From contig CALRFT010000001.1 in assembly GCA_943356745.1 (NCBI GenBank), forward strand, positions 11,946 to 75,945: a DNA stretch of 64,000 nucleotides, given 5' to 3'. This document shows, piece after piece, positions 6,292 through 33,190 of the stretch. A program made the position numbers and the translations under genes. Position 1 is the stretch's first letter, and every line of letters begins with the position of its first letter. The stretch is from Parcubacteria group bacterium (lineage in GTDB: Bacteria > Patescibacteriota > Minisyncoccia > Phycocordibacterales > CSBR16-119). The notes beneath the pieces are model-generated. The model saw only the letters and a program-made list of their open reading frames with translations, made no database searches and was not told where the DNA came from.

Positions 6292-6546
6292 TTATTTTTT
6301 CTTTGCTGCTTGCGCTCGCTTTTTGAATTTGTCTACTCGTCCAGCTGTATCGAGTACTGTTTCTTTTCCTGTGTAGAATGGATGTGTATCACTTGAAATT
6401 TCTACTCGGTAAAGATCGTATTCTTTTCCTTCAAATGTTCCTTTTTCATCAGTATGTACTGTTGAAGAAATAAGAAACTGCGCTCCTGATTGAGCGTCTT
6501 GGAAAATTACTGATCGGTAGTTTTTTGGATGTATTCCTGATTTCAT
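6292..6546 (-). CDS. rpmE: 50S ribosomal protein L31
   Basis: [12 protein letters not shown]-terminus. The ORF track starts 6 codons earlier (6564); the start is placed at the conserved Met. Confidence 0.9.
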
Positions 6547-6604
6547 ACTTGGATAATTTACCACATGCCCGTGATTTTTGCAAGATTTGTGTTAATATAC
6601 AGCC

Positions 6605-7363
6605 ATGGACCCAAAAAAGCAAGAAAAACAATGGCTTTTAAATGAAAAATATCAAGGAATTGAAAGTCCTGAGTTTTTTGAGGATTTTAAAAAACTGGAA
6701 TCTGGAACACCTCTTGCTTACCTTATTGGAAACATACCCTTTCTTGAAATCACTGTCGATTTAGAATATAAACCTCTTATACCAAGACCAGAAACTGAGT
6801 TTTGGGTAAATTACTGTACTCAGAAATATATTCCCCTAGAGGCAAATATTTCCATTCTAGACATATATTCTGGTTCTGGATGTATCGGACTTGGAATCGC
6901 AAAAAAAAGACCAAACACAAAAATTCTTTGTAGCGATATTAAAAAAGAAAACATAGTTCAAATACAGAAAAATATCGTTCTCAATGGAATTTCAGAAAAG
7001 CAGGTTTCAGTTATTCAGTCTGATATATTTAAAAATATCTCAATGCAAAAATTTGATATCATTTTTGCAAATCCTCCGTATATCTCAGAACAAAGAAAAG
7101 ACACCGTTGATGATTCTGTTTTACTCTATGAAGACCACCACGCTCTTTTTGCAGAAGATGATGGATTATTTCATATTAAAAATCTGATTGAAAAAATTCC
7201 ATTTTTCTTGAAAGATAATGGGTATATGTTTATAGAATTTGATCCATGGCAAAAAAAATTAATTGAATCTTACATACAAGAAAAGGAAATATGTTTTGAA
7301 TTTTTACAGGATCAATATCAAAAAAATCGTGTACTTATAATTCAAAATAAAAAACTCGCATAA
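6605..7363 (+). CDS. prmC: release-factor glutamine N5-methyltransferase (HemK/PrmC)
   Basis: NPPY motif (FANPPYIS) and SAM-binding G-x-G (IYSGSGCIGL); adjacent to prfA. Confidence 0.88.
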   Translation: MDPKKQEKQWLLNEKYQGIESPEFFEDFKKLESGTPLAYLIGNIPFLEITVDLEYKPLIPRPETEFWVNYCTQKYIPLEANISILDIYSGSGCIGLGIAKKRPNTKILCSDIKKENIVQIQKNIVLNGISEKQVSVIQSDIFKNISMQKFDIIFANPPYISEQRKDTVDDSVLLYEDHHALFAEDDGLFHIKNLIEKIPFFLKDNGYMFIEFDPWQKKLIESYIQEKEICFEFLQDQYQKNRVLIIQNKKLA

Positions 7364-17109: not shown

Positions 17110-17150
17110 CCAGAAAAAACAAAAACCCCGTGAATATTCACGGGGTTTTT
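17110..17150. repeat. 41-bp repeat copy 1, containing a palindromic terminator
   Basis: ccagaaaaaacaaaaaccccgtgaatattcacggggttttt, identical to 17861-17901; the stem is ccccgtgaatattcacgggg. Confidence 0.9.
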
Positions 17151-17821
17151 TCTTCATTTCTGAAAAGAGAAATCCAATTTGTAATCTCCTCGTAATTTTT
17201 AAGACCGATTTCCACTGCACGAGATTTACAAATAGTTAAAAGTTCATCAACGGAAAAATCCTTCAGGTATACCAGCATCATAAGAGAAAAAGTATTCCAA
17301 AAATTGTCTTGAAAATTTGACGACAAGCTCATGATTTCAAGCAGTGTGTCTTCTTTTTCTTTTTTCCCTTTTGCTAAAATATACTTGATATCGTATTTTA
17401 CCCAAAAGTTTTCATACAATGCTAGCGGACTTGTTTTTTCTACCCATTCAAAAGAGGATAGATGTTTTGTCTTTCCCGCAATAAGCCCAATAACAGAAAG
17501 GCGTTCAAATTTTCTATCCGGATATTCTACCTCTGTCCATTTTTCATTCAAAAAAATAAAAAGGGTGTCATAAAAATCTTGAGTATCAATACCTGCCCGC
17601 TGAACCCACGACACAAATGAAATAAAATTAGGATACTGCGGAAATAATTCAAGAGAACCGGGAATTATTTCAATAGACAAGTCGGTGAAATCGTTTCGAA
17701 TAATTGAATTATTTTTTAAAAAATCAGCATATAAATCTCTTAGTAAAAAACCATCTTTTGATATGGGTTGATCATTCCTAAGCATTTGAGCCAATTCCGT
17801 AATGTTTGTAAGTTTTTTCAT
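17138..17821 (-). CDS. hypothetical protein (227 aa)
   Basis: Intact ORF with no recognisable motif; its stop codon lies in the loop of repeat copy 1. Confidence 0.55.
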   Translation of the reverse strand: MKKLTNITELAQMLRNDQPISKDGFLLRDLYADFLKNNSIIRNDFTDLSIEIIPGSLELFPQYPNFISFVSWVQRAGIDTQDFYDTLFIFLNEKWTEVEYPDRKFERLSVIGLIAGKTKHLSSFEWVEKTSPLALYENFWVKYDIKYILAKGKKEKEDTLLEIMSLSSNFQDNFWNTFSLMMLVYLKDFSVDELLTICKSRAVEIGLKNYEEITNWISLFRNEEKTP

Positions 17822-17860
17822 AGTACAGTATTTTTTGTTTTCATCACCTTATCACATTAT

Positions 17861-17901
17861 CCAGAAAAAACAAAAACCCCGTGAATATTCACGGGGTTTT
17901 T
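17861..17901. repeat. 41-bp repeat copy 2, containing a palindromic terminator (downstream of gap)
   Basis: Identical to 17110-17150. Confidence 0.9.
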
Positions 17902-27383: not shown

Positions 27384-27458
27384 GGCTCTATCGTCTAGCG
27401 GCTAGGACGCCAGGTTCTCATCCTGGAAACCGGAGTTCGATTCTCCGTAGAGTCACCA
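27384..27458 (+). tRNA. tRNA-Glu (anticodon CUC), CCA encoded
   Basis: Glu-type D-arm TCGTCTAGCGGCTAGGAC, anticodon loop UUCUCAU, T-loop TTCGATT; acceptor GGCTCTA/TAGAGTC with one G-U pair. Confidence 0.88.
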
Positions 27459-27484
27459 ACTCGTACTGACTCGAGAAGCACATT

Positions 27485-28327
27485 ATGATGACCACACAAA
27501 TAACACAAATAGAGAAATGGAATAATAGACAGAGAGAACTGTTAAAATTTCTAGGTACAACAGAACCCGTTAGGGGTAATATTATACGTGAGTGGATCGC
27601 AGAATGCATAGTTCACTTTACAGAAGTAAATGTTCCGCAAAATATAATTGCATATTTTTTAACAAAAATGGAACATATTAGCATAAAAGGGAAAAAAAAA
27701 TTAAAGACTATTTACTTTCAAGACGATGATGAAGAAGAGGAGAAAGAAAGCTTTATTGGTCCATTTGAATTTGTTGGCAACGGGTACCTAATTACATCAG
27801 GTAATATATTGACTGGTAAACAAGGTGGTCATGTAAAGATGACCCCAATATTAGTAGCATTTAGGGTAGCTCAAAATTTAATTGATACATATAAAGATCA
27901 AAATAATATCATTCCTAAAATTTTAATTACAGAATTAGAAAAGTATAAAGATACGAAGAGTTTGTCGTTATCTTTAAGCACAATACAAACCGCTTTTGAA
28001 AAAGATGATATTGATTCAATGTTAATATCGATTATTACATCAACTGATTTAATTTTAAGTCTAATACCTGAGTTATCCTCTACAAAAGATTTGAAGCCTA
28101 AAATTCAAACCGCGCATGACAGTAAGACTATTTACGGGAAATACTCTATGGACCCTGAAATCTTATGGTCAATAAATAATTCACGTATTATACGAAATTA
28201 TAAAATCCATAAACCTATTAAAACTAACCACACCACTACTTATGAAGCAGTGGGGTATGCACACCTTCTTCATTTATTAATTTCATCAATATTAAGTTCT
28301 GGTGAGTTAAAATTAACAAAAGAATAG
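27485..28327 (+). CDS. hypothetical protein (280 aa), tRNA-adjacent and AT-rich
   Basis: Intact ORF starting 26 nt after tRNA-Glu; contains an acidic DDDEEEEKE patch and no recognisable motifs. Confidence 0.55.
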   Translation: MMTTQITQIEKWNNRQRELLKFLGTTEPVRGNIIREWIAECIVHFTEVNVPQNIIAYFLTKMEHISIKGKKKLKTIYFQDDDEEEEKESFIGPFEFVGNGYLITSGNILTGKQGGHVKMTPILVAFRVAQNLIDTYKDQNNIIPKILITELEKYKDTKSLSLSLSTIQTAFEKDDIDSMLISIITSTDLILSLIPELSSTKDLKPKIQTAHDSKTIYGKYSMDPEILWSINNSRIIRNYKIHKPIKTNHTTTYEAVGYAHLLHLLISSILSSGELKLTKE

Positions 28328-28386
28328 CTCTCTCGAGGTGTTTTTCTCTTCCCTTTTATTTCCCCTTATGATACTCTCTCAAATAC

Positions 28387-28749
28387 ATGAAAACAACAGT
28401 CACAAAACAATTTAAATTTGAAGCAGCGCACACACTGCCAAACCATAATGGAAAATGTAAAAATCTCCACGGGCATTCATACCTTTTGGAAGTGACAGTT
28501 TCAGGAGAAAAACAAACTAGCGGTCCACAAGAAGGAATGATTATCGATTTTGGAGATATGACAAAAATAGTAGAAGAACACATTGTAAAAAAGTGGGATC
28601 ATCAATTTTTGAATGACATACTTCCCTTTGTGACCACAGCAGAAAATCTTGCAGAAGAATGTTTTCGAATTTTGGAATCGCAAGGTCTTCAGGTGGAAAG
28701 AATCAAACTTTGGGAAACCTCAAAAGCATATGCAGAAGTGAAAAGATAA
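28387..28749 (+). CDS. queD: 6-carboxy-5,6,7,8-tetrahydropterin synthase (QueD/PTPS family)
   Basis: FKFEAAHTLPNH...CKNLHGHSY zinc-binding His/Cys motif; 120 aa. Confidence 0.9.
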   Translation: MKTTVTKQFKFEAAHTLPNHNGKCKNLHGHSYLLEVTVSGEKQTSGPQEGMIIDFGDMTKIVEEHIVKKWDHQFLNDILPFVTTAENLAEECFRILESQGLQVERIKLWETSKAYAEVKR

Positions 28750-28750
28750 T

Positions 28751-28776
28751 AAAAAACCTCTTATGAGGTTTTTTAT
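28751..28776 (+). terminator. rho-independent terminator
   Basis: aaaaaacctc-ttat-gaggtttttt. Confidence 0.8.
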
Positions 28777-28921
28777 TATGGCTCTAAAAATCTAACATCT
28801 ATATAATTTCATACAAAAGAAATTGTTCACCCTAATGTTCTTTGGGGTTGAATTTATTAGGATATTATGGTCTTATAGTGTATACTCAGTATGAGATCAC
28901 ATTGTTATTAATGTTATCAAT

Positions 28922-29311
28922 ATGTTAAATTCTCCTAAAAAGATTATGACTAAATCAAATCAAGTGATGAAAAATCTATTAATCACTGTTGGAATAATCG
29001 CTCTCGTTGCACTTATTCTGTTTGGAATATTTCAAACAATCAATAATTCAAAAGATGGTGAAGATCTAAGTGTAGAATCAACCACGGAAGTAGAAGCTGA
29101 AAAAGACGCAAATCCTCTTTTGAGCGAAGCACAAGAAAAGTCTCTTGGAAATATTGGGGTTGACCCTGGAAGTCTGCCTACAGAAATAACACCAGCAATG
29201 CAAATTTGTTTTGTTGAAAAATTAGGACTGGAAAGAGCTGAGGAAATAGCAGATGGAGATTCTCCAACGCCTGGAGATTACATCAAAGCTAAAAGTTGTT
29301 TAGATATCTAG
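28922..29311 (+). CDS. membrane-anchored hypothetical protein
   Basis: TM helix (LLITVGIIALVALILFGIF) followed by an acidic extracellular region. Confidence 0.5.
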   Translation: MLNSPKKIMTKSNQVMKNLLITVGIIALVALILFGIFQTINNSKDGEDLSVESTTEVEAEKDANPLLSEAQEKSLGNIGVDPGSLPTEITPAMQICFVEKLGLERAEEIADGDSPTPGDYIKAKSCLDI

Positions 29312-29317
29312 CAAAAA

Positions 29318-29344
29318 TAAAAAACCTCGTAAGAGGTTTTTTTG
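29318..29344 (+). terminator. rho-independent terminator
   Basis: aaaaaacctcg-taa-gaggttttttt. Confidence 0.8.
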
Positions 29345-29660: not shown

Positions 29661-30296
29661 ATGTCAGACGAACTACTACAAATTGTCGATCCAGAGACAG
29701 GAGAACCAACAGGAGAACATCTTCCTCGAAAAAAGGTTCTTGAAGAAAAACTCTGGTGCCGAACAACAAATATTTTTATCCTCAACACAAAAGGTGAAGT
29801 TCTTTGTCACCAAAGATCACTTTCTAAAGAACGATTCCCTGGAACCTGGAGTACTCACTTTGGAGGTCACGTAACAGAAGGAGAATCTTTCAAAATTAGC
29901 GCCCTTAAAGAAACAGAAGAAGAGCTTGGACTCAAAGTGAATGCATTTCAAATGATTCCATGGAGAACAAGTAAAAAAAGTGTAAGTCGAATTTGGGTTC
30001 GAGATTTTATCACAGTATTTGATGGAGATATTTCAAAACTTCCCATTCAAACATCAGAAATTGAACAGATTAAATGGTTTACTCCTGAAGAAATACTAGC
30101 AGAGCTCGACGCGGAAGGAGATGAAGATACAGTCAACTGGCTTGCTGGGACACATGACTTCTATGCAGACTATCAATGTATGCGAGCAGTACTTACCGCA
30201 ACAATCGACGCTGGAATTTTTGGTGGAGATTATACACCACTTAGAAACTGGCAACCTGTTTTAGGAAAAGATAACAAAAGCTCAACGCCTCATTAA
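29661..30296 (+). CDS. NUDIX hydrolase
   Basis: Nudix box GGHVTEGESFKISALKETEEELGL. Confidence 0.85.
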   Translation: MSDELLQIVDPETGEPTGEHLPRKKVLEEKLWCRTTNIFILNTKGEVLCHQRSLSKERFPGTWSTHFGGHVTEGESFKISALKETEEELGLKVNAFQMIPWRTSKKSVSRIWVRDFITVFDGDISKLPIQTSEIEQIKWFTPEEILAELDAEGDEDTVNWLAGTHDFYADYQCMRAVLTATIDAGIFGGDYTPLRNWQPVLGKDNKSSTPH

Positions 30297-30300
30297 AATA

Positions 30301-30330
30301 AAAACCCCTCGTACGTTTACGAGGGGTTTT
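30301..30330. repeat. 30-bp terminator hairpin, copy 1 of an identical pair
   Basis: aaaacccctcgtacgtttacgaggggtttt, identical to 31708-31737. Confidence 0.9.
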
Positions 30331-30361
30331 GCAAATCATTTGCATAAATATAAAAATAATA

Positions 30362-30367
30362 TATACT
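30362..30367 (+). promoter_or_regulatory. -10 TATACT 7 nt upstream of the ATPase ATG
   Basis: TATACT, then tcaattt, then ATG at 30375. Confidence 0.35.
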
Positions 30368-30374
30368 TCAATTT

Positions 30375-31199
30375 ATGATTATTGGATTTCTAGGAAAAGG
30401 AGGAAGTGGGAAATCTTCCACAGCTACACAATTCGCGCTTTGGCTTGAGAAAGAAGGATATTCTCTGCTTGCGATAGACGCAGATCACAATATGGATTTT
30501 CTGTACAATCTCACTCAAGGAAAAGAAGTTCTCTCTCATTTTCTTGGAAGCTCTGGCTTTGATATAGAAGATTTTCTTGATGCAGATCATTCAAAAAAAT
30601 ATAAAGAAATATTTTTGGAGACAAAAAGTAAACATAAATTTTCACTCCTTCCCCTTGATTCATTTTCTGAAAAATATATAAGCTCGATTCGAAAAAATAT
30701 TCGAGTTATGGCAGCGGGTCCACAAACAGACGAGGTGATTGGTGGGAAAGTGTGTAGTCACAATCTCACGTCAGTACTCAAGCTCTATCTTCCCCTGCTT
30801 CAAGTTCCAGACAAACATATTGTGGTAGTGGATGAAAAAGCTGGCGCGGATGGAGTCACAACTGGAATTGTAACAGGGCTTGATTATGCTATTGTGGTGT
30901 GTGAACCTTCTTTACATAGCACAAAAACAGCCAGACAAATACTTTCACTTCTTGAAAAATACAACACGCCAAAAGTGGTGGTGGGTAACAAAATCACAAG
31001 CCCAGAAGACATGGATTTTATTTCCCAAGAAATCCCAGACGAAGCTATTATTTTCATACCAGCAAGCAGCGGAGTCCGAACAAAACCAAGTGAATATGAC
31101 CCACAGTATGAAGAAGCTTTGCAAAATCTTTTTCAATATCTTTTGGAAAACTATGAAGACAAAAGATATGAGCGAACATTGGAAAAATTTTCTTCATAG
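30375..31199 (+). CDS. ParA/MinD-superfamily P-loop ATPase (CooC/ArsA-like)
   Basis: Deviant Walker A GKGGSGKSS, then DADHNMD, and a Walker B-like VVVDEKAG. Confidence 0.78.
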   Translation: MIIGFLGKGGSGKSSTATQFALWLEKEGYSLLAIDADHNMDFLYNLTQGKEVLSHFLGSSGFDIEDFLDADHSKKYKEIFLETKSKHKFSLLPLDSFSEKYISSIRKNIRVMAAGPQTDEVIGGKVCSHNLTSVLKLYLPLLQVPDKHIVVVDEKAGADGVTTGIVTGLDYAIVVCEPSLHSTKTARQILSLLEKYNTPKVVVGNKITSPEDMDFISQEIPDEAIIFIPASSGVRTKPSEYDPQYEEALQNLFQYLLENYEDKRYERTLEKFSS

Positions 31200-31280
31200 T
31201 ATGTTTTTATATCACACAAACCATGCCTTTGTGTGATACATAAAACATATAGTTCTTTTTAACCTTTTAAATTTATAATT

Positions 31281-31703
31281 ATGGATTGCGAAAAAGCCCG
31301 TCAGGTTTATGTTGGTGGACCAGATCAGTACATCGACCAAGTTAAAGAAATGTTTCCGAAAGCATATGAATGGCTTTCAGAGCTAGCCAAGAAAACAGTA
31401 CAAGGTACCGGAAAACATCCCTTTCACAAAAAAGTGGTTGAGATGGCAGGAGATGGACCATACTATCTCGAGCATGGAGATGATAATGATCCTGTCTTCA
31501 AAGAAGTTCATGAACTTCTAAGTGACCTGACAGGTATGCATCTTATCAACAAACACTTCTCCGGTATACACGGAACAAAACTCAGCTTTTCAAATATCTG
31601 CTGCAGTAGTTGCAAATGTGTAAAAGGAGAAATGTCCATCGAGAAGATCATGCGTATTCAATACGCAGCTGTACAAGTAGAAGCTGATGGCACACTCGTT
31701 TAA
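31281..31703 (+). CDS. hypothetical Cys-containing protein (140 aa) paired with the ATPase
   Basis: Intact ORF with a CCSSCKC cluster near the C-terminus; 81 nt after the ATPase. Confidence 0.55.
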   Translation: MDCEKARQVYVGGPDQYIDQVKEMFPKAYEWLSELAKKTVQGTGKHPFHKKVVEMAGDGPYYLEHGDDNDPVFKEVHELLSDLTGMHLINKHFSGIHGTKLSFSNICCSSCKCVKGEMSIEKIMRIQYAAVQVEADGTLV

Positions 31704-31707
31704 AACA

Positions 31708-31737
31708 AAACCCCTCGTACGTTTACGAGGGGTTTTT
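31708..31737. repeat. 30-bp terminator hairpin, copy 2 (bidirectional)
   Basis: Identical to 30301-30330. Confidence 0.9.
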
Positions 31738-31741
31738 AACA

Positions 31742-32794
31742 CTAAACCTCCACAGTGTGAGATTCATTGCCGAGTTTATGGAGATATTTAAAATGCTCTA
31801 CAATTGCTTTTCCAAAACCACCAATATTGTTGTAAGGTATGTTTTTTTCTTTGCAATACCTTTGAACAATTTTTGAGATTTTTGGATAATGAACATGGGA
31901 AATGTATGGAAAAATATGGTGTTCAATTTGATAATTGAGACCACCAGTTAACCATGTAACAAATCGATTCCCAACCGCAAAATTGCATGTCGTACGGATT
32001 TGATGCTCTTCTCGATTAAACTCAATAGTTTTTGGAAAATGAGTAAGGCTCGAAACGTGAGCAGGTTGAAACACCAAAGAGAGAAACAAACCAGCAGTCA
32101 GATGCATACACAAGAAAAAGACAAGAACATACCAAAAAGAAACTTTCCAAAATAATCCAGGGATAACAATCCAAAATACAAAGTAGCCAATCTTTGAAAG
32201 TGAGATAGCAAGAAGGTGATTTTTGATTTTTTTAAAATTTCTCCTGTTTTTTTTGTAGTATCGGTAAGCTTGACCAAAGTCTTTCCACGTACACCAAAAG
32301 AGGGTCATGATTGAATAGAAGAAAGGAGCATACCACGCTTGATATTTGTGCCCCTTCCTTAGTGGTTGATGAGGACTAAAACGAAAGAGCCCTCTTGTGT
32401 CGAGATCACTGTCGTGTTCGGTTGAATTTGTAAAAGAATGATGATCCAGATTATGTTGTTCGTTCCAGTTAGGTCCGTAGCCACCCACAAAATAAATTGA
32501 TGACCCAAACAATAAGTTCACCCACTCTTTTTGAGAGAAAGATCTATGATTTGCATCATGCATCACTCCCATACCAATTCCAGACTTGGCGATACCAGCA
32601 AGAATTCCCATACAGACAAGAATCCAAAGAGGTACAGAAAACAAAAAAAGAGCAGTGTATAAAGAAAAATATACTCCTATCAAAATAAAGGCTTTGATAT
32701 AGAGATTTATATTTCCATTGAATTTTTCTGCCAGAAACACTTTTACTTCCTCGTGAAGCTCTGTGTCATTTTCATGATTTTTATTTTTTTCCAT
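31742..32794 (-). CDS. membrane fatty-acid desaturase family protein
   Basis: Three His boxes (HDANH, HNLDHH, QIEHH) and four or more TM helices. Confidence 0.85.
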   Translation of the reverse strand: MEKNKNHENDTELHEEVKVFLAEKFNGNINLYIKAFILIGVYFSLYTALFLFSVPLWILVCMGILAGIAKSGIGMGVMHDANHRSFSQKEWVNLLFGSSIYFVGGYGPNWNEQHNLDHHSFTNSTEHDSDLDTRGLFRFSPHQPLRKGHKYQAWYAPFFYSIMTLFWCTWKDFGQAYRYYKKNRRNFKKIKNHLLAISLSKIGYFVFWIVIPGLFWKVSFWYVLVFFLCMHLTAGLFLSLVFQPAHVSSLTHFPKTIEFNREEHQIRTTCNFAVGNRFVTWLTGGLNYQIEHHIFPYISHVHYPKISKIVQRYCKEKNIPYNNIGGFGKAIVEHFKYLHKLGNESHTVEV

Positions 32795-32875
32795 TGTAAA
32801 AAACTTTTTTTCTAATCATAGCAAAATATGAAATTAAAAAACACTATTCAGTAGTACTGAATAGTGTTTTAAATA

Positions 32876-33190
32876 TCACACTGTTTCAAGCTCTCCTACA
32901 ATGGTTTTAACAATAACTTTTTCCTCTTTTTCATCAAAAGGTTTCATGAAATCGATTTCAAATTTTTCTCTTTGCTCAGATCCAAACTTTCTCATTGCGA
33001 TCTCGTTTTTAAACATGAGAATAAAGTTAATTGATTTTTTTTCAATATCTTGGATATGACGAGCAATATCCTCGACTAGTCCATTTTTAACCATTTCGGA
33101 TTTAAGGGTTAAAAAAGTTTTTAAGCCCTTACCCAAAAGCTCTTCGCTTTCAGTTTCAAAAAAAACATACAATCTTAAATTTTCTTCCAT
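32876..33190 (-). CDS. hypothetical protein (104 aa)
   Basis: Intact ORF with no recognisable motif. Confidence 0.45.
   Translation of the reverse strand: MEENLRLYVFFETESEELLGKGLKTFLTLKSEMVKNGLVEDIARHIQDIEKKSINFILMFKNEIAMRKFGSEQREKFEIDFMKPFDEKEEKVIVKTIVGELETV

What the first reader, a model, noticed from the sequence alone, without database searches (positions are those of the whole stretch)
30301..31737. ParA/CooC-like ATPase plus small Cys-cluster protein cassette bounded by identical 30-bp terminators
aaaacccctcgtacgtttacgaggggtttt occurs identically at 30301-30330 (after the NUDIX gene) and at 31708-31737 (after the 140-aa gene, where it is bidirectional with the desaturase).

Between the two copies lies a two-gene unit. 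The first gene is a deviant-Walker-A ATPase (GKGGSGKSS ... DADHNMD) of the MinD/ParA/CooC/ArsA class. The second is a 140-aa protein with a CCSSCKC cluster and conserved His and Asp residues.

P-loop ATPases of this class usually act with a small metal-binding partner. Examples are CooC with CooJ/CooT, ArsA with ArsD, and HypB/UreG-type systems. I suggest this pair is an uncharacterised metallochaperone or delivery couple, possibly acquired as a unit.
Basis: partly seen in the sequence, partly recalled or inferred. Interest (0 to 1): 0.55.

Follow-up and report, generated by a model that had tools for sequence, protein, structure and literature searches.

The report
Metal-regulated ATPase pair on variable cassette
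A CooC-like ATPase and a small cysteine-motif protein, a gene pair found behind a Fur-type metal-sensing operator across many candidate-phyla-radiation bacteria, sit here on a 1.4-kb segment that is bounded by two identical terminator hairpins and is missing from near-identical strains.

Summary
It flanks a 274-aa deviant-Walker-A ATPase and a 140-aa Cys-motif protein.

The pair is a real, conserved module.
- The 140-aa family lies next to an ATPase orthologue in all 15 contexts examined.
- The ATPase belongs to a large Patescibacteria family related to CooC. An invariant Cys-x-His replaces CooC's metal-binding Cys-x-Cys.
- The ATPase is nearly always followed by a Cys-motif partner from one of at least four families. 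One is Pfam PF20704, to which the 140-aa family is remotely related.
- A perfect palindrome, TGCAAATCATTTGCA (30330-30344), precedes the operon. The same Nur-box-like motif is about 85-fold enriched upstream of orthologues. It also precedes adjacent Fur-family, COG0523, ZIP and ZnuA genes.

The best reading is a metal-limitation-induced metallochaperone couple, probably for zinc. The metal and the direction of transfer are inferred.

Two near-identical strains have NUDIX and desaturase convergent on one hairpin and lack the cassette. Segment 30331-31736 is therefore a strain-variable indel bounded by the repeat. Two further terminator-bounded cassettes lie in the same window.

The parts
30301..30330 (.). 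Hairpin copy 1. It is the intrinsic-terminator-like stem-loop after NUDIX and the left boundary of the indel.
   Evidence: The single copy in strains L091/L092 carries this copy's left flank.
30330..30344 (.). Perfect palindrome TGCAAATCATTTGCA, a candidate Fur-family operator of the ATGCAA-N5-TTGCAT (Nur-box-like) type.
   Evidence: It is the only exact site in the window. TGCAA-N5-TTGCA is present within 200 nt upstream of the ATPase in 32 of 75 loci, at 2.73 per kb against 0.032 per kb elsewhere. Consensus, target genes, Nur box in PMC2691836.
30339..30367 (+). Putative promoter: TTTGCA, 17 nt, TATACT. The -35 lies inside the palindrome, and the ATG follows 8 nt after the -10, so the mRNA may be leaderless.
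   Evidence: Consensus scan. This is weak, because promoter-like sites occur at chance frequency in this region.
30375..31199 (+). CooC-related deviant-Walker-A ATPase, 274 aa. K8 is the signature lysine; C127-S-H129 is invariant.
31199..31250 (+). Intercistronic extended stem-loop.
   Evidence: Energy -19.1 kcal/mol, z -4.9. It is conserved in L001 and L003-L005, with a compensatory C-G to U-A change in L001. It is not a significant match to the RNA model R1.
31251..31258 (+). AGTTCTTT motif upstream of the small gene. Many orthologous spacers share it.
31281..31703 (+). 140-aa Cys-motif partner protein: N-terminal M-D-C, H65, D82, C107-C108, C111, Q127.
31707..31736 (.). Hairpin copy 2. It is a bidirectional terminator between the small gene and the desaturase, and the right boundary of the indel.
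   Evidence: The single copy in L091/L092 carries this copy's right flank.
30331..31736 (+). 1406-bp segment (operator, two genes and one hairpin copy) that is absent from the near-identical strains L091/L092.

Best explanation
The two genes form one operon that is a member of a module conserved across Patescibacteria. A CooC-like P-loop ATPase is followed, after a spacer of about 80-100 nt, by a small cysteine-motif partner.

Regulation (inferred). A Fur-family metal sensor, not encoded in this window, binds the palindrome at 30330-30344, which overlaps the -35. It represses the operon when its metal is plentiful. The operon is switched on under metal limitation, most likely of zinc.

Mechanism (inferred by analogy with CooC1 and ATPase-type HypB). 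ATP closes an ATPase dimer through the signature lysine. Cys127 and His129 of the two subunits then form a bridging 2Cys-2His metal site. ATP hydrolysis opens the dimer and passes the metal to or from the partner. The partner binds it through its vicinal Cys107-Cys108, with Cys111 or His65, and the N-terminal Cys3 arm.

Shown here: the homology, the invariant motifs, the strict adjacency of the two genes, the conserved operator and the metal-uptake neighbours. Not shown: the metal, the complex and the client.

Separately, the whole operon plus one hairpin copy is a 1406-bp presence/absence polymorphism between close strains. The two identical hairpins are its breakpoints. It arose by recombination at the terminator, either insertion at a single hairpin or deletion between the two copies.
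For: Adjacency
- The ATPase orthologue lies directly upstream on the same strand in all four close relatives and in L005.
- The same holds in distant relatives with 27-40% identical small proteins: L008, L025, L036, L041, L058, L065, L082 and L093. In L084 the small gene lies upstream instead. The L094 fragment matches the ATPase C-terminus by eye.

ATPase
- At least 531 homologues, at about 48% identity in Patescibacteria.
- Invariant GKGGSGKS, DxDHNMD, C127 and H129.
- A family profile matches CooC1 (3kje) over its full length at E 3.8e-15. C-S-H aligns with CooC1's C-Y-C.
- The AlphaFold model (pLDDT 90.8) has CooC1 as its second-best PDB neighbour.

Partner
- Invariant C107, C108 and Q127; nearly invariant H65 and D82.
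- Confident model, pLDDT 94.7, with no PDB fold match.
- Remote homology to the PF20704-type partners: hhalign 93%, E 3.4e-7.
- Other orthologous loci carry other Cys-motif partners in the same position.

Regulon
- The operator is about 85-fold enriched upstream of the ATPase.
- Sites lie in promoters of the ATPase (48), Fur (26), ZIP (7), cobW (6) and ZnuA (3).
- A Fur-family gene lies within 4 kb in 58 of 86 loci.
- L006 reads ZnuABC, then divergently cobW, ATPase, partner and Fur. L093 reads Fur, ATPase, small protein.

Indel
- L091/L092 share 98-100% identity with the window in the flanks. They have one hairpin and no cassette.
Against: - No experiment or complex model links the two proteins or any metal.
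- The window contains no Fur, ZIP, ZnuA or cobW gene. Regulation here rests on the operator alone.
- The adjacent Fur proteins score best against iron Fur and PerR models, not Zur.
- The operator core resembles the nickel-responsive Nur box, so the metal is open.
- CooC's Cys-x-Cys is not conserved, and no CO dehydrogenase gene was seen nearby.
- Only 8 of 80 orthologous genome loci carry this particular partner family. It may therefore be a client rather than a chaperone.
- The predicted promoter is a chance-level consensus match.
Confidence: 0.6

Rival explanations
1. The pair is a ParA/MinD-type positioning or partition ATPase with a small adaptor, as in ParF-ParG or MinD-MinE. The upstream palindrome would be its own autoregulatory operator or centromere-like site.
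For: - Deviant Walker A.
- The best PHROG hit is a ParA-like partition protein, E 1.9e-14.
- The top Foldseek hit is a ParA-family ATPase, 3ea0, and MinD, FlhG and Soj also rank high.
- The cassette-like layout, with a small downstream gene and an upstream palindrome, resembles plasmid par loci.
Against: - The NCBIfam ParA and MinD models score 22-32 bits against cut-offs of 180-213.
- The partner has no ParB, ParG or MinE-like family or fold.
- The palindrome also precedes Fur, ZIP, cobW and ZnuA genes.
- An invariant Cys-x-His sits at CooC's metal site.
- The module is chromosomal and conserved across a phylum.
Confidence: 0.08
2. The architecture is the same, but the metal is nickel or iron (or an Fe-S cluster) rather than zinc. 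The regulator would then be a Nur- or Fur-type sensor.
For: - The operator core TGCAA-N5-TTGCA matches the 6-5-6 Nur box tTGCaa-N5-ttGCAA.
- CooC and ATPase-type HypB are nickel chaperones.
- The adjacent regulators score best against iron Fur models.
- Pfam NUBPL/ParA (PF10609) hits the P-loop region.
Against: - The regulon neighbours are COG0523 (cobW), ZnuA/ABC-3 and ZIP, the classic low-zinc set.
- No nik, NiCoT, hydrogenase, urease or CO dehydrogenase genes were seen in the loci.
- The Mrp/NBP35 CxxC motif is absent. One Cys per subunit cannot bridge a [4Fe-4S] cluster in the usual way.
Confidence: 0.2
3. The small protein is not a chaperone. It is the client or effector that the ATPase matures: one of several alternative metal-dependent or metal-sparing proteins that different lineages place behind the same ATPase.
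For: The ATPase is constant, while the downstream gene switches between at least four families of 130-250 aa. Profile similarity is weak or absent among most of them. Each has conserved Cys motifs but a different size.
Against: The partners are small and have no enzyme-family match. Two of the four families are remotely homologous. Terminal Cys arms are typical of metallochaperones.
Confidence: 0.25
4. The identical hairpins are ordinary independent terminators, or a product of gene conversion, and say nothing about mobility.
For: They have textbook intrinsic-terminator anatomy, and the window is rich in such hairpins: 32 found against 10.4 expected. Cassette G+C content is native.
Against: - 30 of 30 identity with only two copies in the window.
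- The empty site in L091/L092 has exactly one copy, with the outer flanks of the two window copies.
- Two more cassettes in the window have the same anatomy. One of them is also absent in L092.
Confidence: 0.05

Closest known systems
CooC (CooC1 of Carboxydothermus hydrogenoformans, PDB 3kje), the ATP-dependent nickel-insertion protein for CO dehydrogenase
   Same: MinD-class fold and deviant Walker A with a signature lysine. There is full-length profile similarity (E 3.8e-15), and a Cys-containing motif sits at the same position as the dimer-interface metal site.
   Different: The motif is Cys-Ser-His, not Cys-x-Cys. No CO dehydrogenase is nearby. The context is a Fur-family, zinc-uptake-like regulon. 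There is an obligatory downstream Cys-motif partner. Identity is about 20%.
ATPase-type (Mrp/MinD-type) HypB with HypA, of Thermococcales (PDB 5auq)
   Same: A MinD-class ATPase is paired with a small metal-binding protein of about 140 aa that uses an N-terminal residue motif plus a Cys motif. HypB is a structural neighbour, E 2.4e-8.
   Different: The small protein has no sequence or fold match to HypA. No hydrogenase genes were seen nearby.
COG0523 zinc metallochaperone GTPases (ZigA, YeiR, ZNG1) of Zur regulons
   Same: Nucleotide-driven P-loop proteins with a Cys-rich metal motif that are induced by metal limitation. Members are encoded in the same operons in relatives, for example cobW directly upstream of the ATPase in L006.
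   Different: They belong to a different P-loop class (G3E GTPase versus MinD-type ATPase). They have a CxCC motif and no dedicated small partner.
Pfam PF20704 (KH_NucS_shadow) / NCBIfam SCO5389 family
   Same: The partner family c6 of the same ATPase belongs to PF20704. The window's 140-aa family aligns with it at 93% hhalign probability and shares the N-C-C and Q-I-x-x-Q/A motifs.
   Different: None of 31 members of the 140-aa family reaches the Pfam model. The third Cys is N-terminal here and C-terminal there. PF20704 itself has no known function and was once filed as a spurious ORF (PMC9710616).
Nur box of Streptomyces coelicolor (tTGCaa-N5-ttGCAA; PMC2691836)
   Same: A 6-5-6 palindrome with the same TGCAA/TTGCA core, associated with a Fur-family regulator gene.
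   Different: The phylum is different. The consensus here is aATGCAA-N5-TTGCATt. The regulon looks like zinc uptake rather than nickel uptake and superoxide dismutase. Binding is untested.

Membership tests
CooC (COG3640, CO dehydrogenase nickel-insertion ATPase) | Deviant Walker A GKGGxGK[ST] with signature lysine | tested here: met
   GKGGSGKS is invariant in 30 of 30 family members.
CooC (COG3640, CO dehydrogenase nickel-insertion ATPase) | Full-length sequence similarity to a characterised CooC | tested here: met
   The family profile matches 3kje at E 3.8e-15, residues 1-232 against 1-219. Foldseek rank 2, E 1e-10.
CooC (COG3640, CO dehydrogenase nickel-insertion ATPase) | Cys-x-Cys metal-binding motif at the dimer interface | tested here: not met
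   The aligned position is an invariant Cys127-Ser-His129.
CooC (COG3640, CO dehydrogenase nickel-insertion ATPase) | Genomic association with CO dehydrogenase / acetyl-CoA synthase genes | tested here: not met
   None among the annotated neighbours in the window or in relatives.
CooC (COG3640, CO dehydrogenase nickel-insertion ATPase) | ATP-dependent nickel binding and insertion | not testable with these tools
   This needs biochemistry.
ParA / MinD partition and positioning ATPases | Score above the curated family thresholds | tested here: not met
   ParA_partition scores 31.6 bits against a cut-off of 180. minD_bact scores 26.7 against 212.9.
ParA / MinD partition and positioning ATPases | Cognate partner of ParB, ParG or MinE type | tested here: not met
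   The partner has no Pfam, NCBIfam, PHROG or PADLOC family and no PDB fold match.
Pfam PF20704 / SCO5389 family (for the 140-aa protein) | Match to the family HMM at or above the gathering score | tested here: not met
   No PF20704 hit even at E up to 1 for any of the 31 members of the 140-aa family, including the window protein.
Pfam PF20704 / SCO5389 family (for the 140-aa protein) | Profile-profile homology to bona fide members | tested here: met
   hhalign of A2 against A4 (PF20704-annotated partners) gives probability 93%, E 3.4e-7 over 93 columns. The c6 HMM hits the window ORF at E 1e-4.
Fur-family (Zur/Nur-like) regulon member | Conserved palindromic operator in the promoter region | tested here: met
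   A perfect site lies at 30330-30344. The motif is about 85-fold enriched upstream of orthologues.
Fur-family (Zur/Nur-like) regulon member | Regulator gene present and shown to bind the site | tested here: inconclusive
   A Fur-family gene is adjacent in 58 of 86 related loci, but none lies in this 64-kb window. Binding is untestable here.
Integron gene cassette (attC-bounded) | attC anatomy (RYYYAAC / GTTRRRY cores, imperfect stem with extrahelical bases) and a nearby IntI integrase | tested here: not met
   By reading the sequence, the repeat is a perfect 13-bp G+C-rich stem with A and T runs, which is terminator anatomy, and it has no core sites. The window was not scanned systematically for an integrase.
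Intercistronic RNA motif R1 (found here in orthologous loci) | Significant covariance-model match in the ATPase-partner spacer | tested here: not met
   The window spacer 31197-31262 scores 6.7 bits, E 5. It shares only a long hairpin and the GTTCTTT motif.

The most novel reading that the evidence does not exclude
Terminator hairpins in this CPR genome act as attachment or recombination sites for a gene-cassette exchange process that has no recognisable integrase inside the cassettes. Complete small operons, including this metal-regulated ATPase pair, would then be gained and lost between strains with duplication of the whole terminator.

Three observations fit this reading:
- Three such cassettes lie in 64 kb.
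- Two of them are confirmed as presence/absence polymorphisms.
- The 30-nt hairpin is 30 of 30 conserved in a relative whose flanking genes are only 66-76% identical.
Probability: 0.2. Interest if true: 0.8.

Novelty: new variant of a known kind. Interest (0 to 1): 0.62.

Why it matters
If correct, this would be a widespread and uncharacterised metal-handling module in Patescibacteria, organisms with tiny genomes and poorly understood metal economy. It would consist of a CooC-type ATPase re-tooled with a Cys-x-His site, interchangeable Cys-motif partners and a Fur-family operator.

It also gives the first functional lead for Pfam PF20704 / SCO5389, a family once dismissed as a spurious ORF.

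It yields a predicted regulon and operator that could be tested directly.

Independently, the terminator-bounded presence/absence cassettes point to a simple route of strain-level gene flux in CPR genomes.

Tried and rejected
- **Family scans of the 140-aa protein.** Pfam, NCBIfam, PADLOC and PHROGs gave nothing.
- **PDB searches for the 140-aa family.** Sequence search with the family profile gave only chance hits, E at least 0.29. Foldseek of the confident model against PDB gave a best E of 0.6.
- **Locus search with the 31-sequence alignment.** The ATPase alignment was used instead.
- **The 231-aa partner of L006.** It showed no profile similarity to the 140-aa family, probability 0.1%. Partner families c3 and c18 could not be linked to it convincingly.
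- **A weak tblastn 'Fur' hit at 6932-7162.** It lies inside a methyltransferase-like ORF and was rejected.
- **Rfam.** Nothing at gathering score in the spacers. Only sub-threshold hits over the hairpin in the window.
- **Model R1.** It does not recover the window's spacer.
- **Viral contigs.** Neither hairpin core is present.
- **Literature.** Searches for CooC, Patescibacteria and zinc found nothing relevant.
- **Horizontal transfer by composition.** No G+C anomaly.
- **Integron attC reading.** Rejected on the anatomy of the repeat.
Full report
**Observation**

The 30-nt sequence AAAACCCCTCGTACGTTTACGAGGGGTTTT occurs at 30301-30330 and at 31707-31736. With up to three mismatches allowed these remain the only copies in the 64-kb window, and none of 100 shuffles produced a match. 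Each copy is a 13-bp stem with a 4-nt loop, flanked by A and T runs. The scan for terminator-like sites finds it among 32 such hairpins in 18 kb, against 10.4 expected.

- NUDIX, 29661-30296 (+)
- a 274-aa ATPase, 30375-31199 (+)
- a 140-aa ORF, 31281-31703 (+)
- a fatty-acid desaturase, 31742-32794 (-)

**The ATPase**

Pfam places it only weakly in the CbiA/MinD/ParA superfamily, at 33 bits. Every specific NCBIfam model (ParA, MinD, BchL, ArsA, ApbC) scores far below its cut-off.

It nonetheless belongs to a large and tightly conserved family. There are 531 hits, typically 280 aa and about 48% identical, and many are annotated by JGI as 'CO dehydrogenase maturation factor'. In the genome collection they come almost entirely from Patescibacteria MAGs.

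An alignment of 30 members has 63% mean column identity. GKGGSGKS, D35-x-D37-H-N-x-D, MAAGPQTD, C127, H129 and DEKAGADG are all invariant.

A profile of this alignment matches CooC1 (PDB 3kje) over its full length at E 3.8e-15. In that alignment the family's C-S-H falls on CooC1's C-Y-C. From my own knowledge of the CooC1 structures, that is the Cys-x-Cys motif which binds Ni or Zn at the ATP-dependent dimer interface.

The AlphaFold model (pLDDT 90.8, pTM 0.91) has a ParA-family ATPase and CooC1 as its two best PDB neighbours. BchL, MinD, FlhG, NifH and ATPase-type HypB follow. The loop that carries C127 and H129 is the least confident part of the core.

The protein is therefore CooC-like in fold and layout but fails two defining CooC features. 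It lacks the Cys-x-Cys motif, and it has no association with CO dehydrogenase.

**The 140-aa protein**

The word-indexed search found only three relatives, at 72-77% identity. The exhaustive profile search of 1.84 billion representatives found 28 clusters.

Conservation across the family is as follows:
- C107, C108 and Q127 are invariant.
- H65, D82 and A130 are nearly invariant.
- Most members have C or H at the position of C111.
- Nearly all full-length members begin M-[DN]-C.

AlphaFold gives a confident model from 31 sequences (pLDDT 94.7, pTM 0.88). It is helical, with a three-stranded sheet whose hairpin carries the Cys-Cys pair. Nothing in the PDB resembles it, with a best Foldseek E of 0.6. 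No family library recognises it.

**Co-occurrence**

Every context of the 140-aa family that I could read has an ATPase orthologue adjacent on the same strand. These contexts are:
- the four short contigs of the close relatives
- L005
- L008
- seven genome loci with the small gene downstream, and one with it upstream
- L093
- the truncated L094, whose upstream fragment matches the ATPase C-terminus by eye

The converse does not hold. Of 80 genome loci with the ATPase, only 8 carry this partner. Almost all have some co-directional gene about 80-100 nt downstream. These genes fall into several families:

| Family | Size | Hallmarks | Loci |
|---|---|---|---|
| c3 | about 235 aa | N-terminal M-C, LCSCG motif | about 30 |
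| c6 | about 130 aa | MSFPS...NCC...QI..Q...DC | 19 |
| c18 | about 250 aa | GHGCGCSC | 7 |
| the 140-aa family | about 140 aa | M-[DN]-C, NICCSGC | 12 |

Family c6 belongs to Pfam PF20704 and NCBIfam 'SCO5389 family'. That family was reinstated from AntiFam after AlphaFold showed it to be real, and it has no known function (PMC9710616).

The 140-aa family is a remote homologue of c6. hhalign gives 93% probability and E 3.4e-7, with N-C-C and Q-I aligned. None of its members reaches the Pfam model. The third conserved Cys is N-terminal in one family and is the C-terminal residue in the other. That would fit a flexible terminal metal-binding arm, which is my inference.

**Regulatory context**

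Immediately after the first hairpin lies a perfect 7-1-7 palindrome, TGCAAATCATTTGCA (30330-30344), 30 nt before the ATG. It is the only exact site in the window.

The pattern TGCAA-N5-TTGCA occurs within 200 nt upstream of the ATPase in 32 of 75 loci. That is 2.73 sites per kb, against 0.032 per kb in the remaining 778 kb of the same loci. The consensus from 58 distinct sites is aATGCAA-N5-TTGCATt with a variable centre. This is the 6-5-6 architecture and core of the Streptomyces Nur box, tTGCaa-N5-ttGCAA (PMC2691836).

A Fur-family gene (PF01475, E 1e-24) lies within 4 kb in 58 of 86 loci. It is mostly divergent from the ATPase or is the first gene of the operon.

The sites sit in the promoters of these genes:

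| Gene | Sites |
|---|---|
| ATPase | 48 |
| Fur-family gene | 26 |
| ZIP transporter | 7 |
| COG0523 / cobW | 6 |
| ZnuA | 3 |
| YibE/F | 2 |

L006 shows the whole set: ZnuA, ZnuC and ZnuB divergent from cobW, ATPase, partner and Fur. This is the gene set of a low-zinc (Zur) regulon.

The adjacent regulators score best against iron Fur models, and the box looks like a nickel regulator's. The metal is therefore inferred, not shown.

The window itself contains no Fur, ZIP, ZnuA or cobW gene. In the 79%-identical relative L005, a Fur gene is convergent with the small gene, at the position where the window has the desaturase.

**Mechanism proposed**

A Fur-family sensor represses the operon at the palindrome, which overlaps a weak consensus -35. 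When metal is limiting, the ATPase and its partner are made.

By analogy with CooC1 and ATPase-type HypB/HypA, ATP closes an ATPase dimer and builds a bridging 2Cys-2His site. Hydrolysis then releases the metal to, or takes it from, the partner's Cys-Cys site and terminal Cys.

The homology, motifs, adjacency and regulon are shown here. Metal binding, the complex, the direction of transfer and the client are inferred.

The rivals are set out in the rival-explanations section:
- a partition-type ATPase
- a metal other than zinc
- the partner as client rather than chaperone

**The identical hairpins**

A scan of metagenome contigs for the hairpin core found two contigs, L091 and L092. Their flanks match the window at 98-100% nucleotide identity. 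In both, NUDIX and the desaturase are convergent on a single hairpin:

...CCTCATTAAAATAAAAACCCCTCGTACGTTTACGAGGGGTTTTTAACACTAAACC...

That copy has the left flank of the window's first copy and the right flank of its second. The ATPase and the small gene are absent.

The segment 30331-31736 (operator, operon and one hairpin) is therefore a 1406-bp indel whose breakpoints are the direct repeat.

Next to it, the desaturase (31707-32900) is only 85-90% identical between the strains, against a background of 98-100%. That is the signature of a recombination tract from a more divergent relative.

Gain and loss cannot be separated:
- For loss: the pair lies beside the same PBP-MraW-MraZ block in L005, and beside NUDIX, in inverted order, in L001. 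This favours an old residence at the locus, followed by deletion between the repeats in L091/L092.
- For gain: the perfect identity of the repeats favours a recent event.
- Composition is uninformative.

In L001 the flanking coding DNA is only 66-76% identical to the window. Even so, the hairpin is 30 of 30 identical, in NUDIX orientation. That is more conservation than a terminator needs.

**The pattern recurs**

The 129-aa ORF at 28922-29311 lies between two near-identical terminators (28748-28774 and 29316-29342). It is also missing from L092, which has one terminator there.

A 227-aa ORF (17138-17821, minus strand) lies between two 41-nt, 100% identical terminator copies at 17110-17150 and 17861-17901.

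A third variable spot follows tRNA-Glu (27384-27458), where the window and L092 carry different genes.

The hairpin is thus not a genome-wide element. Terminator-bounded, strain-variable cassettes are, however, a feature of this genome. The repeats lack attC anatomy, and the cassettes encode no recombinase that I could recognise.

**Spacer RNA**

In most orthologous loci, whichever partner follows, the spacer between the ATPase and its partner holds three elements: a long hairpin, a short second hairpin and a GTTCTTT motif ahead of the ribosome-binding site.

In the long hairpin, 13 of 14 pairs show compensatory changes. A covariance model built from 21 spacers hits about 35 of 88 sources over 931 kb. 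Every match lies in or over that spacer, and a few are reverse-strand matches to the hairpin alone. Rfam has nothing there.

The window's spacer keeps an extended hairpin (31199-31250; z -4.9; compensatory change in L001) and AGTTCTTT. It does not score as a member, at 6.7 bits.

**Verdict**

The metallochaperone reading is supported by context but remains unproven. The 'acquired as a unit' idea is supported as an indel polymorphism.

I rate this a new variant of a known kind: a MinD/CooC-class metal-handling ATPase with a small partner. Three leads came out of the work and were not part of the original finding:
- the operator and its regulon
- the spacer RNA
- the terminator-bounded cassettes

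Noticed in passing
L006:5841-5915, L064:6676-6752, L054:6823-6907 and about 30 other loci; window 31199-31258 is a degenerate version: A conserved structured element lies between the ATPase and its partner gene: a long hairpin (13 of 14 pairs with compensatory changes), a short second hairpin and a GTTCTTT motif before the ribosome-binding site. Model R1 matches only in or over this spacer, in about 35 of 88 sources. It is not in Rfam.
   Followed up: partly
window 28748-29342: A 129-aa ORF (28922-29311) is flanked by near-identical terminators, AATAAAAAACCTC[TTAT/GTAA]GAGGTTTTTT. The close strain L092 has one terminator and no ORF at this site. This is a second terminator-bounded indel, 1 kb from the finding.
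   Followed up: partly
window 17110-17901: A 41-nt, 100% identical terminator repeat (CCAGAAAAAACAAAAACCCCGTGAATATTCACGGGGTTTTT) flanks a 227-aa ORF of unknown function (17138-17821, minus strand). It lies between RpiB-like and GAPDH-like ORFs; those two names come from reading the translations and were not checked against a family library. This is a third cassette of the same anatomy. No empty site was available to check.
   Followed up: partly
window 27459-28340 versus L092:1103-2094: Directly after tRNA-Glu (27384-27458) the window carries a 280-aa ORF with no family. The near-identical strain carries two different ORFs there, of 80 aa and 175 aa (the latter DUF7689). This is a tRNA-adjacent variable spot.
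   Followed up: partly
window 31707-32900: The desaturase next to the cassette is only 85-90% identical to L092 at the nucleotide level, whereas the surrounding genome is 98-100% identical. This is a divergent recombination tract abutting the indel.
   Followed up: partly
L001:1279-1308 versus window 30301-30330: The 30-nt hairpin is 30 of 30 identical in a relative whose flanking NUDIX, ATPase and small-protein genes are only 66-76% identical at the DNA level. There it lies between the small gene and a convergent NUDIX gene, which is a different gene order.
   Followed up: partly
L005:1418-1435, and proteins P0006, P0031: The annotated N-terminal extensions of some ATPase orthologues (MQIICK..., MQITCI...) are translations of the operator palindrome ATGCAAATCATTTGCA. 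The real start is the conserved MI[IL]GFLGKGG.
   Followed up: yes
L034, L060-L089 (partner family c6); proteins P0152-P0271: In Patescibacteria, members of Pfam PF20704 / SCO5389 family are encoded directly downstream of the CooC-like ATPase, often beside ZIP and YibE/F genes. The family has no known function and was formerly an AntiFam entry. This gives it a functional lead.
   Followed up: partly
window 6292-6564 (-): A 90-aa L31-like ribosomal protein whose translation shows no Cys at all, hence no CxxC zinc motif. It looks like the zinc-independent type that Zur regulons often contain. No operator-like site was seen upstream.
   Followed up: no
29 of 86 ATPase loci, e.g. L038:2236-3387, L089:5473-6581: YibE/F-like membrane proteins (PF07907) are the second most frequent neighbour of the module after Fur. 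The member examined has a C-terminal His-rich tail. They may be an unrecognised metal transporter of the same regulon.
   Followed up: no
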